Shown: one piece after another, positions 14,512 through 15,490 of the stretch
Layout of the letters: the number at the start of each line of letters is the position of its first letter
Position numbering within the stretch: position 1 is the stretch's first letter
Assembly (NCBI GenBank): GCA_016840095.1
Contig: JAEOSZ010000111.1
Location: 77,258 to 101,257 of the forward strand
Direction of reading: 5' to 3'
Origin: Candidatus Heimdallarchaeota archaeon
GTDB taxonomy: Archaea > Asgardarchaeota > Heimdallarchaeia > Heimdallarchaeales > Heimdallarchaeaceae
DNA length: 24,000 nucleotides
The notes under the pieces: generated by a model
Database searches by the model: none
What the model was told of the DNA's origin: nothing
What the model saw: the letters and a program-made list of their open reading frames with translations, nothing else
Translations under genes and position numbers: made by a program

Positions 14512-14539
14512 TTTGAACCCTCAAATCTTGAAAAATACC

Positions 14540-15490
14540 TTATTTTTTAGCTGTCTTCTTTGCAGTTGTTGTCTTCTTTGCAGTTGTTGTCTTCTTTGCA
14601 GTTGTTGTCTTCTTTGCAGTTGTTGTCTTCTTTGCAGTTGTTGTCTTCTTTGCTGCTGTAGTTTTTGGTTTAGCTGTAGTTTTTGTTGCTGTTGTCTTCT
14701 TTGCAGTTGTTGTCTTCTTTGCTGCTGCTGTCTTTGGTTTAGCTGTAGTTTTTGTTGCTGTTTTAGCTTTAGTCTCTGGTTTTGTCTCCTCTTTTTGTTT
14801 TTCTGGAGTTTCCTTAGGTTTTACTGGTGCAGTTTTCTTTGGTAGTTTTTTCTTGGGAGTTCCTGTTTCCACCAATCGTAATCTAGAAGTTGATTTTATT
14901 ACAACTCTATAGTAGGAACCATTTTCTCCCATATCTGGGTTTCGAACGATTTTGATAACATCACCAGGTTTTGCTTGTATTGCTTTTACTGCAGCATCAG
15001 TTTCTAGTATCTTTGGTATTTGATGTTTCTGAATCTGATATCTTTCCAAGAATCCTTTTATGTCTCTAGTTCTGAGCTTAACATGCTGACGAACTAGTTG
15101 ATGCTCAAAGATATTAAACAATGGATTAGTGCTACTAATAATTTCAATTCCTAATTTTACAGATTCCTTTTTTGCATAATGTGTTAATGGGGATTCTGCA
15201 ATTAGTAAGGCTTCATCTAGTTCCTCTTCTTCTTGTAATTTACCTAGAAGTCTGATTAATTTCACACCAATTTGAGGATTTTTTGGGAATCGTGCAATAG
15301 CTGTTACTGTTTCTTTTTCCTCACTAAGCTTCTTAGCATATACATCTAGAAAATCATCGTCTTCTTTTGTATCACTAATCTTAAATCCTCTAAACTCAAG
15401 AATTTCCTTAACTCCATCCACAATCCTCTTTTCCTTGGCTTTTTGTTCCTTAGAAGACAAGTAAGTTACCTCGGCATCCTTAATAATCAA
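14540..15490 (-). CDS. rpoH: RNA polymerase subunit Rpb5/RpoH homologue with three parts: Rpb5-N-like domain (aa 1-125), RpoH/Rpb5-C core (aa 126-198), and a Lys/Thr/Ala/Pro tandem-repeat tail (aa 199-316)
   Basis: The core NIFEHQLVRQHVKLRTRDIKGFLERYQIQKHQIPKILETDAAVKAIQAKPGDVIKIVRNPDMGENGSYYRVV matches the RpoH/Rpb5-C consensus (HxLVPxH..l..eE...LL..Y.i...QLP.I...DPva...g.k.GdVvKI.R.S.taG....YR.V). See findings for the N-terminal similarity. The start is a TTG at 15490. There is no in-frame ATG in the first 180 codons, so the exact start is uncertain. Confidence 0.8.
   Translation of the reverse strand: MIIKDAEVTYLSSKEQKAKEKRIVDGVKEILEFRGFKISDTKEDDDFLDVYAKKLSEEKETVTAIARFPKNPQIGVKLIRLLGKLQEEEELDEALLIAESPLTHYAKKESVKLGIEIISSTNPLFNIFEHQLVRQHVKLRTRDIKGFLERYQIQKHQIPKILETDAAVKAIQAKPGDVIKIVRNPDMGENGSYYRVVIKSTSRLRLVETGTPKKKLPKKTAPVKPKETPEKQKEETKPETKAKTATKTTAKPKTAAAKKTTTAKKTTATKTTAKPKTTAAKKTTTAKKTTTAKKTTTAKKTTTAKKTTTAKKTAKK
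14549..14771. repeat. Coding tandem repeat: 18-bp unit GCAGTTGTTGTCTTCTTT in 5 perfect head-to-tail copies, nested in a 68-69-bp higher-order duplication
   Basis: Perfect copies lie at 14562-14579, 14580-14597, 14598-14615, 14616-14633 and 14634-14651, with a sixth at 14703-14720. Block 14634-14702 is repeated with a few changes at 14703-14770. On the minus strand this encodes (KKTTTA)n. Confidence 0.9.

What the first reader, a model, noticed from the sequence alone, without database searches (positions are those of the whole stretch)
14543..14896. Histone-H1-like (KKTTTA)n tail on an RNA polymerase subunit, encoded by perfect 18-bp tandem repeats
Seen in sequence: the last 118 codons of the Rpb5-like gene encode a Lys/Thr/Ala/Pro low-complexity tail (TPKKKLPKKTAPVKPKETPEKQKEE...AKKTTTAKKTTTAKKTTTAKKTTTAKKTTTAKKTAKK). 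The final ~75 residues contain no acidic residue. At the DNA level, five 18-bp units are identical and directly abutting (14562-14651). They are embedded in a 68-69-bp second-order duplication (14634-14702 vs 14703-14770). Inference: perfect nucleotide identity implies recent expansion by slippage or recombination, so copy number is probably polymorphic between strains. A strongly basic, Thr-rich (potentially phosphorylatable or glycosylatable) repeat tail on an RNAP subunit could mediate DNA/chromatin contact or condensate-type interactions. This is loosely analogous to H1/Hc1-type tails or, conceptually, to repeat tails on eukaryotic RNAP. That functional reading is speculative.
Basis: partly seen in the sequence, partly recalled or inferred. 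Interest (0 to 1): 0.6.

Follow-up and report, generated by a model that had tools for sequence, protein, structure and literature searches.

The report
Polycationic repeat tail on archaeal RpoH
The only RNA polymerase subunit H (Rpo5/Rpb5) gene of this Heimdall-group Asgard archaeon ends in a real, disordered, lysine/threonine-rich tail of about 110 residues encoded by fast-changing tandem repeats. The whole genus keeps such a tail, and it most likely acts as a non-specific DNA tether, though nobody has tested that.

Summary
**Observation: confirmed.** The minus-strand ORF 14540-15490 is the genome's only RpoH/Rpb5 gene. Its last ~112 codons encode a tail that is 33% Thr, 32% Lys and 16% Ala, with net charge +31 and no acidic residue in the last 77 positions. 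An exact 18-bp periodic run spans 14552-14653. AlphaFold2 predicts the tail to be disordered.

**Conservation.**
- All 23 inspectable same-genus genomes (the AB_125 group) and about 40 database homologues carry a basic tail.
- These homologues form one well-supported clade.
- Charge and length are kept (net +19 to +53), but each species uses a different repeat unit.
- Near-identical assemblies differ by whole units. This fits copy-number polymorphism, although short-read collapse is not excluded.

**Outside the clade.** Sister lineages have short acidic tails or none.

**Clues to function.**
- One orthologue ends its array in a helix-hairpin-helix DNA-binding domain.
- Subunit H lies next to downstream DNA.
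- The closest functional analogue is the Lys-rich tail of Sulfolobus Rpo13.

"H1-like" holds for composition only. There is no linker-histone domain, and I found no histone-fold gene in this genome.

Earlier follow-ups in this scan noted a lysine-rich tail on RpoH in other Heimdall genomes. I found no paper describing it.

The parts
14540..15490 (-). RpoH/Rpo5/Rpb5 gene: 316 codons from TTG 15490, stop TAA at 14540-14542. The more likely start is the TTG at 15460-15458, which is preceded by an SD-like GAGGT. That start gives 306 aa beginning (M)SSKEQ, as AB_125 is annotated.
   Evidence: ORF list; Pfam; sequence of the start region; only Rpb5_C gene in the genome; AB_125 annotation P0212
15134..15451 (-). 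N-terminal domain (aa ~14-119). It has a restriction-endonuclease-like fold and is homologous to the eukaryotic Rpb5 N-terminal 'jaw' domain.
   Evidence: Weak Mrr_cat hit. The orthologue profile aligns to full-length eukaryotic Rpb5 chains at E 1e-23 to 3e-22. The top Foldseek hits are Rpb5 chains. pLDDT is 75-91.
14900..15118 (-). Rpb5_C (RpoH core) domain, aa 125-197
   Evidence: PF01191, 76.3 bits, E 1.6e-21
14846..14899 (-). Conserved post-domain segment IKSTSRLRL...KKK (aa 198-215). Basic-tailed and acidic-tailed family members both have it. Eukaryotic Rpb5 and short archaeal RpoH lack it.
   Evidence: I198, K199, S200, R203 and L204 are invariant in alignment A1. Sequences. Eukaryotic Rpb5 ends at the aligned YRLV.
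14771..14845 (-). Proximal, non-repetitive mixed-charge Pro/Lys/Glu part of the tail (aa 216-240). It is conserved with AB_125.
   Evidence: Translation; comparison with L002/P0001
14543..14770 (-). Repeat array (aa 241-316): K 34%, T 41%, A 22%, no acidic residue, net +26. It is built of 18-bp units nested in a 69-bp second-order repeat.
   Evidence: TRF; codon table; composition; pLDDT about 30, no secondary structure
14552..14653 (-). Exact period-18 run: 102 bp, with five identical TTTAKK units (ACA ACA ACT GCA AAG AAG)
   Evidence: Exact-run scan; codon table
14513..14845 (+). Opposite-strand 110-aa Cys/Leu-rich ORF. It is a by-product of the low-complexity repeat, not a gene.
   Evidence: ORF list. 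It exists only because the repeat is open in several frames.

Best explanation
**Shown.** The genome's sole RNA polymerase subunit H (Rpo5) is a two-domain, Rpb5-like protein. It carries an intrinsically disordered, polycationic C-terminal extension of about 110 residues.
- In-frame tandem repeats encode the extension, and their period is always a multiple of 3.
- The repeats turn over quickly, most probably by slippage or unequal recombination.
- Each species in the AB_125-type Heimdallarchaeaceae genus has its own unit (KKTTTA, PKTTKAK, APSKTTAKPKT, KKPAAKPKEAT, PKPKTTTK, TPAKKT and others).
- Close strains differ in copy number.
- Length (about 80-170 aa) and net charge (about +19 to +56) persist throughout one monophyletic clade. 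So selection acts on composition and charge, not on sequence.

**Inferred.** Subunit H sits at the lower jaw, next to downstream DNA. The tail therefore most likely works as a non-specific electrostatic tether to nucleic acid, most probably double-stranded DNA entering the enzyme. That would raise the polymerase's general DNA affinity, its retention on the template, or open-complex stability. The Lys-rich C-tail of Sulfolobus Rpo13 and the lysine repeats of actinobacterial TopA and HU work this way.

**Odds.** My confidence that the tail is a real, selected disordered polycation is about 0.9. My confidence that DNA tethering is its main job is about 0.5.
For: **Reality and identity**
-.
- Predicted disorder: pLDDT below 50 for residues 205-316, while the globular part scores 75-91.

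**Conservation of charge, not sequence**
- 17 complete same-genus tails are 80-159 aa long with net +19 to +53.
- 11 of the 17 contain exact tandem runs of at least 66 nt, with periods of 18, 21, 24 or 33.
- On the tree of the globular domains, all 40 basic tails, plus 3 proteins whose tails are cut short (at least two of them annotated as partial) and were scored 'mixed', form one clade with 99/99 support. Acidic-tailed and tail-less proteins lie outside it.

**Polymorphism**
-.

**Link to DNA**
- Orthologue L035 has a KPKETA array followed by an HhH_5 domain (51.4 bits against a cut-off of 27). The same downstream cofD gene follows it.
- Only five ORFs in this genome have such a polycationic stretch. 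Three of the other four carry nucleic-acid-handling domains: two Toprim proteins and one HhH_5 protein. The fourth is a 940-aa ORF with only a sub-threshold RAD51D_N match.
- The tail alone draws weak compositional hits to Streptomyces HU and TopA lysine tails.
- Deleting the Lys-rich C-tail of Rpo13 abolishes its dsDNA binding (PMC3479171).
- TopA lysine repeats stabilise the enzyme-DNA complex (PMC5714199).
Against: - Nothing has been tested biochemically.
- I did not establish where the C-terminus of H leaves the polymerase surface.
- Sister lineages in the same family carry short acidic tails (P0041-45, P0209-211). Most other two-domain RpoH proteins have no tail. The feature is therefore dispensable for polymerase function in general, and the sign of the charge is not conserved across the family.
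- The HhH fusion is a single contig.
- The genome adds charged repeats to other housekeeping proteins, uS4 and uS11. This fits a lineage-wide mutational tendency as well as it fits a specific function.
- Two database versions have frameshifted tails (P0007, P0238).
- Copy number in the window has no read-level check.
Confidence: 0.55

Rival explanations
1. The tail is a tolerated by-product. The C-terminus of RpoH is unconstrained, and A-rich coding repeats expand by slippage in this AT-rich lineage. Lys/Thr/Ala composition simply follows from AAG/ACA/GCA-type repeats. The tail has no specific role.
For: Unit sequence, copy number and length vary enormously. Sister lineages carry acidic tails or none. 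Similar charged repeat extensions sit on uS4, uS11, Toprim and HhH proteins of the same genus. 158 of 207 tandem arrays in the genome are in-frame coding repeats.
Against: Every member of a clade of about 40 sequences keeps a long tail with a strong net positive charge, despite complete turnover of the repeat unit. Drift would be expected to give frequent losses, truncations and mixed charge. The start and end of the tail are conserved (RLRL...KKK...KK[ST][AS]KK). One lineage added a DNA-binding domain to the end of the array.
Confidence: 0.17
2. The tail binds RNA or organises higher-order assemblies rather than DNA. It could hold the nascent transcript, couple the polymerase to the ribosome, or drive polyanion-dependent clustering (condensates) of polymerases. 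Thr or Lys modification might regulate this, which would make it a loose analogue of the Pol II CTD.
For: It is a long disordered polycation with low-complexity repeats. It is Thr-rich, and some orthologues have (S/T)PxK-like motifs such as TPAKK and TPSK. In the same genus uS4, which lines the ribosomal mRNA entry site (established knowledge), carries a charged repeat linker plus an HhH domain that is 53-61% identical to the one fused to RpoH in L035.
Against: There is no heptad or otherwise conserved recognition motif, since the units differ between species. The window's own array has almost no Pro. There is no evidence of modification. Subunit H lies on the downstream-DNA side, not at the RNA exit (PMC2847245).
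Confidence: 0.15
3. The tail is a docking or charge-balancing element for an acidic partner or an acidic polymerase surface. Candidates include the acidic N-terminal extensions of Rpo6 described in Asgard archaea, or a regulator.
For: Related RpoH proteins have a basic patch followed by an acidic tail (P0041-45, P0209-211). This shows that charge at this position is what evolves. Charged N-terminal extensions of Rpo6 that contact Rpo5 are reported from models in Asgard archaea (PMC13257274).
Against: A net charge of +30 to +50 over more than 100 residues far exceeds what a single protein interface needs. No partner has been identified.
Confidence: 0.08
4. The array, or its copy number, is an assembly artefact.
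For: Five of 23 same-genus RpoH contigs end inside the array, and one has an N gap there. So these repeats do trouble assemblers. No reads could be examined.
Against: The array lies within a contig of more than 150 kb (one search reports arrays beyond position 150,000 on C122). Unique sequence and the conserved cofD neighbour flank it. The reading frame runs cleanly to a conserved ...TAKK stop. Dozens of independent assemblies give the same architecture. The 102-bp exact run is shorter than a typical 150-bp read (inference).
Confidence: 0.05

Closest known systems
Rpo13 of Sulfolobales RNA polymerase (PDB 4ayb, 4b1o; PMC3479171)
   Same: It is a Lys-rich, disordered C-terminal tail on a polymerase component placed beside Rpo5 at the downstream DNA entrance. 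The tail is invisible in structures. It binds dsDNA without sequence specificity, and deleting it abolishes binding.
   Different: Rpo13 is a separate small subunit with a helical core and an acidic N-tail, and its basic tail has only about 22 residues (11 Lys). Here the tail is fused to Rpo5 itself, is about five times longer, is Thr-rich and is built from hypervariable tandem repeats. There is no sequence homology.
Eukaryotic Rpb5 / RPABC1 (e.g. 1dzf, 7eu0_E, 5flm_E)
   Same: The globular part of the protein is homologous over both domains.
   Different: Eukaryotic Rpb5 and ordinary archaeal RpoH end at the last strand of the C-domain (the alignment ends at residue 209 of 210). They have no C-terminal tail.
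Linker histone H1 C-terminal domain; chlamydial Hc1/Hc2 (Pfam HC2, PF07382)
   Same: All are long, disordered, Lys-rich, repeat-prone tails with few or no acidic residues. Some orthologues contain (S/T)PxK-like motifs and give sub-threshold HC2 matches (34 bits against a cut-off of 40).
   Different: There is no winged-helix linker-histone domain and no HC2 match for the window protein. It has 33% Thr instead of the high Ala/Pro of H1. I found no histone-fold gene in this genome. The resemblance is compositional, not homology.
Actinobacterial lysine-repeat tails: TopA C-terminal domain, HupS/MDP1-type HU (PMC5714199)
   Same: These are Lys/Ala/Thr/Pro repeat tails appended to a DNA-transacting enzyme or nucleoid protein. 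Their length varies between species. In TopA they stabilise the enzyme-DNA complex and raise processivity. They are the only non-RpoH hits of the query (E 1e-4 to 1e-3).
   Different: They are bacterial, sit on different host domains, and the similarity is convergent low complexity.
Bacterial RNA polymerase alpha C-terminal domain
   Same: In orthologue L035 the flexible array ends in a helix-hairpin-helix domain (HhH_5, 51 bits; weak RNA_pol_A_CTD match at E 0.008). That makes a DNA-binding module on a flexible tether attached to a polymerase subunit.
   Different: The window protein has the tether without the folded module. The host subunit is different, and nothing suggests recognition of an UP-element type of site.
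Rpb1 C-terminal heptad-repeat domain of RNA polymerase II
   Same: It is a disordered tandem-repeat tail on a polymerase subunit whose repeat number varies between lineages.
   Different: There is no YSPTSPS-like conserved unit. The tail is strongly cationic rather than neutral, the unit differs between sister species, and it sits on a different subunit.

Membership tests
RpoH / Rpo5 / Rpb5 RNA polymerase subunit | Rpb5_C domain (PF01191) above the curated threshold | tested here: met
   76.3 bits against a cut-off of 23.5, aa 125-197
RpoH / Rpo5 / Rpb5 RNA polymerase subunit | It is the organism's polymerase subunit rather than a side paralogue | tested here: met
   It is the only Rpb5_C match above threshold in the 89%-complete genome. 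There is one match per genome in 40 of 41 relatives.
RpoH / Rpo5 / Rpb5 RNA polymerase subunit | Physical incorporation into the polymerase | not testable with these tools
   This needs purification or reconstitution.
Eukaryote-type two-domain Rpb5 | N-terminal domain homologous to the Rpb5 N-terminal domain | tested here: met
   The profile of orthologues aligns to A. thaliana NRPB5A residues 4-205 and human RPABC1 residues 64-209 (E 3e-22 and 1e-23). The top 36 Foldseek hits are Rpb5 chains. The Pfam RNA_pol_Rpb5_N model itself gave no hit at E<=0.01.
Linker histone H1/H5 | Winged-helix globular domain (Linker_histone) | tested here: not met
   There is no such Pfam hit; only Rpb5_C and a weak Mrr_cat were found.
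Linker histone H1/H5 | Lys/Ala/Pro-rich disordered C-terminal tail | tested here: inconclusive
   The tail is disordered and 32% Lys, but it has 33% Thr, 16% Ala and 7% Pro.
Linker histone H1/H5 | Acts on histone-wrapped DNA | tested here: not met
   I found no histone-fold gene (PF00808, PF00125) in the genome, and no tblastn hit with histones from the same order. The genome is 89% complete, so absence is not proven.
Chlamydial Hc1/Hc2 histone-like proteins (PF07382) | HC2 profile match above the gathering score (40 bits) | tested here: not met
   The window protein gave no hit. The best orthologue match is 34 bits (P0019).
Rpo13-type polymerase DNA-tethering tail | Lys-rich disordered tail at the Rpo5/clamp-head side | tested here: met
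   Composition and disorder. Position follows from its attachment to Rpo5 (PMC3479171, PMC2847245).
Rpo13-type polymerase DNA-tethering tail | The tail is required for non-specific dsDNA binding | not testable with these tools
   This needs EMSA with and without residues 205-316.
Rpo13-type polymerase DNA-tethering tail | Homology to the Rpo13 helical core | not tested
   The tail is fused to Rpo5, and no separate helical core is present in the ORF. I made no direct comparison with Rpo13.
Pol II CTD-like repeat tail | Conserved heptad consensus (YSPTSPS) as the repeated unit | tested here: not met
   Units are KKTTTA here and differ in every species.

The most novel reading that the evidence does not exclude
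In a Heimdallarchaeales lineage that seems to lack histones, the polymerase carries its own regulated chromatin-type tail. This would be a modifiable (Thr/Lys) polycationic repeat domain that clusters polymerases on DNA or couples them to the similarly extended ribosomal proteins uS4 and uS11. It would be an archaeal functional counterpart of a CTD or H1-type tail that arose independently on Rpb5.
Probability: 0.07. Interest if true: 0.85.

Novelty: new variant of a known kind. Interest (0 to 1): 0.5.

Why it matters
Subunit H/Rpb5 sits where DNA enters archaeal and eukaryotic polymerases. A tail of about 100 residues with a net charge of +30 to +50 at that position should change how the enzyme finds, holds and moves along DNA.

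The clade offers a natural series for study: basic tails of many lengths, a basic tail ending in an HhH domain, acidic tails, and no tail. Recombinant RpoH and existing H-less reconstitution systems can test this series directly.

The tail also adds to the picture of Heimdall-group archaea decorating core information-processing proteins (Rpo5, uS4, uS11) with eukaryote-style disordered extensions. If the function proves trivial, the case still documents rapid concerted evolution of coding repeats under selection on charge rather than on sequence.

Tried and rejected
- **Locus search with the single protein.** It found nothing in metagenome or genome contigs. It worked only with alignment A1.
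- **Same-species assembly.** I found none for the window. The nearest is AB_125, at 80% nucleotide identity. Polymorphism could therefore be shown only in relatives.
- **Literature.** Six searches and five papers read (PMC13257274, PMC10881513, PMC10307638, PMC7289017, PMC13556214) turned up no description of a basic tail on Asgard RpoH. The library is incomplete, so this is not proof of novelty.
- **H1 or Hc1/Hc2 membership.** Rejected.
- **Chimeric assembly as the origin of the L035 HhH fusion.** I considered this because uS4 of the genus has a similar repeat plus an HhH domain. I rejected it for three reasons:
  - The HhH is only 53-61% identical to the uS4 copies.
  - The normal downstream neighbour, cofD, follows the stop.
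  - A chimera would therefore need two junctions.
- **Plus-strand ORF 14513-14845.** Rejected as a low-complexity artefact.
- **More HhH-ending RpoH proteins.** A search found none.
Full report
**What is there**

The window is AT-rich (33% GC). It comes from contig C122 of a 3.44-Mb Heimdall-group MAG of 165 contigs, 89% complete. Database names for the homologues and record titles place it with Candidatus Heimdallarchaeota archaeon AB_125.

The finding lies in the 3' third of a minus-strand ORF, 14540-15490 (316 codons). Pfam finds RNA_pol_Rpb5_C at aa 125-197 (76 bits) and a weak restriction-endonuclease-like match at aa 25-119. This is the only Rpb5_C gene in the genome.

A profile of orthologues aligns to full-length eukaryotic Rpb5, including its N-terminal domain. 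The AlphaFold2 model's best structural matches are Rpb5 chains. This two-domain aspect is a separate finding of the scan, and I treat it only as context here.

The likely start is the second TTG, at 15460, behind an SD-like GAGGT. The gene lies between an OapC-like zinc-ribbon gene and cofD, not next to rpoB/rpoA.

- Residues 205-316 are T 33%, K 32%, A 16%, P 7%, with net charge +31 and pI 10.7.
- The last 77 residues contain no Asp or Glu.
- The DNA contains an exact period-18 run at 14552-14653. It is five identical ACA ACA ACT GCA AAG AAG units inside a 10-copy degenerate 18-bp array and a three-copy 69-bp higher-order repeat.
- The chance probability is about 1e-44.
- The array ranks 7th of 207 tandem arrays in the genome.
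- The model gives pLDDT of about 30 and no secondary structure for 205-316, against 75-91 for the two domains.

**The tail is conserved in kind, not in sequence**

Forty of 41 related genomes have one RpoH match. I read the gene in 23 other genomes of the genus.
- 17 have complete tails of 80-159 aa with net +19 to +53.
- 5 are cut by a contig end inside the array, and one has an N gap there.

The repeat unit differs from species to species: PKTTKAK, APSKTTAKPKT, KKPAAKPKEAT, PKPKTTTK, TPAKKT, TPDKKAKA and others. Eleven of the 17 complete tails contain exact tandem runs of 66-128 nt, and every period is a multiple of three. The segment right after the domain (KS[ST]SRLRL, then a KKK patch) and the last few residues are conserved.

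On a maximum-likelihood tree of the globular part, all 40 basic-tailed proteins form one clade with 99/99 support. So do 3 proteins whose tails are cut short (at least two of them annotated as partial), which I had scored as 'mixed'. Outside that clade lie family members with a short basic patch followed by an acidic tail, and further out proteins that stop right after the domain.

Among the 150 best representatives in a 1.8-billion-protein library, most two-domain RpoH proteins are 175-220 aa and have no tail. In a sister family of the order the protein is 430-500 aa, with extra N-terminal domain copies. Its tail is short, acidic, or occasionally basic, as in P0048 and P0074.

**Copy number varies between near-identical sequences**

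| Cluster (at least 90% identity) | Tail lengths (aa) |
|---|---|
| 1 (AB_125 species, six variants) | 113, 128, 134, 135, 135, 143 |
| 2 | 81, 119 |
| 3 | 79, 91, 91, 103 |
| 4 | 95, 114, 114, 118 |
| 5 | 106, 115, 132, 132 |

Every difference is a whole in-frame unit. A metagenome contig and the AB_125 contig are 99.4% identical over 4.4 kb, yet 8 of their 28 differences fall within 16 bp of the array.

Short-read collapse could produce part of this variation, so it is support rather than proof. Two database versions (P0007, P0238) read the array in another frame. They are either sequencing errors or rare real frameshifts.

**Clues to function**

1. Orthologue L035 carries eight KPKETA units followed by a helix-hairpin-helix domain (HhH_5, 51 bits against a cut-off of 27, plus a weak hit to the bacterial alpha-CTD model). 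The usual cofD neighbour comes next, so the array there is a tether for a non-specific DNA-binding module. I found no second example.
2. Only five ORFs in this genome contain a comparable polycationic stretch. Three of the other four carry nucleic-acid-handling domains: two Toprim proteins and one HhH_5 protein. The fourth, a 940-aa ORF, gave only a sub-threshold RAD51D_N match.
3. [quoted passage not shown]
4. Published work also shows that the Lys-rich C-tail of Rpo13, which sits in the crevice beside Rpo5, is needed for its dsDNA binding (PMC3479171).
5. Lysine repeats stabilise TopA on DNA in Streptomyces (PMC5714199). Streptomyces HU and TopA tails are the only non-RpoH hits of the query.

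From this I infer a non-specific electrostatic DNA tether. The steps from composition and position to function are inference.

**What speaks against a specific role**

- Charge sign is not conserved across the family.
- Most relatives outside the genus have no tail.
- The same genus also extends uS4 with a charged repeat linker plus an HhH domain, and uS11 with a long K/E/D-rich N-terminal repeat.
- A lineage-wide tendency to grow charged coding repeats is therefore a real rival. The uniform retention of a strong positive charge in the clade argues that selection is acting.

**Comparison with known systems**

The label "H1-like" is correct only for composition.
- There is no linker-histone domain and no HC2 match.
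- Thr replaces much of the Ala/Pro typical of H1.
- I found no histone-fold gene in this genome. In the order, 7 of 47 genomes gave a match, and none of the 8 high-quality genomes did.
- Two Alba genes are present.

The nearest functional analogue is Rpo13. The nearest architectural analogue for the L035 form is the tethered alpha-CTD of bacterial polymerase. The Pol II CTD shares only the idea of a repeat tail.

**Novelty**

I found no paper describing this tail. PMC3479171 even states that no archaeon has the Rpb5 N-domain. Earlier follow-ups in this scan, on other Heimdall genomes, reported the two-domain RpoH and mentioned a lysine-rich tail in passing.

I rate it a new variant of a known kind, namely polycationic repeat tails on DNA-transacting proteins. 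Interest is moderate. It is directly testable with recombinant protein and existing H-less polymerase reconstitution.

**Limits**

- There is no same-species second assembly for the window.
- There is no structural placement of the C-terminus.
- All functional statements are inferred.

Noticed in passing
L035:2495-3493 (metagenome contig Ga0272441_10015948): An RpoH orthologue whose KPKETA x8 array ends in a C-terminal helix-hairpin-helix (HhH_5) domain, with cofD still downstream. It is the only example found.
   Followed up: partly
L085:1125-2060 (G000 contig C63); L081:634-1719 (G001): Ribosomal protein uS4 of this genus carries a Pro/Lys/Glu-rich tandem-repeat linker of about 100 aa plus a C-terminal HhH domain. 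Many contigs in the genus break inside this repeat.
   Followed up: partly
L081:1728-2402; L079:348-1211; L080:542-1291: The next gene, ribosomal protein uS11, has a long K/E/D/T-rich tandem-repeat N-terminal extension of 90-150 aa before the conserved core.
   Followed up: no
G000 contigs C44:819-2405 and C59:3631-5202 (L074, L075): Two Toprim-domain proteins of about 525 aa have a basic Lys/Pro/Thr stretch followed by Arg/Ser/Pro/Thr-rich repeats (PSRPTDRR-like).
   Followed up: no
G000 contig C128:6782-7660 (L076); C4:1-2820 (L073): An HhH_5 protein is followed by perfect 30-bp repeats encoding KPVTKIPTAK. A 940-aa ORF, open at the contig start, has a Lys/Thr/Ser/Ala/Pro-rich tail of more than 100 aa.
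   Followed up: no
whole genome G000 and 46 genomes of the order: G000 gave no histone-fold match (PF00808, PF00125, or tblastn with histones from the order). Only 7 of 47 genomes of the order gave one, and none of the 8 high-quality genomes, including two single-contig genomes. Two Alba genes are present in G000.
   Followed up: partly
P0041-P0045, P0209-P0211; L026: Sister lineages of the family end RpoH with a short Lys patch followed by a Glu/Asp-rich acidic tail of 30-70 aa. This is the opposite charge at the same position.
   Followed up: partly
L022, L023, L026, L028-L030; P0048, P0074, P0087: In a sister family of the order, RpoH is 430-500 aa, with two or three tandem copies of the N-terminal restriction-endonuclease-like domain before Rpb5_C.
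   Followed up: no
P0007, P0238: Database versions of two orthologues read the repeat array in a shifted frame (a Gln/Asn/His-rich tail). They are either sequencing errors or natural frameshifts.
   Followed up: no
window 15458-15490: There are two in-frame TTG starts. The second, at 15460, has an SD-like GAGGT 7 nt upstream and matches the start annotated in AB_125. Several public gene calls start much later (MDGVKEIL, MDVYAEK, or within Rpb5_C), which removes part or, in the shortest calls, most of the N-terminal domain.
   Followed up: partly
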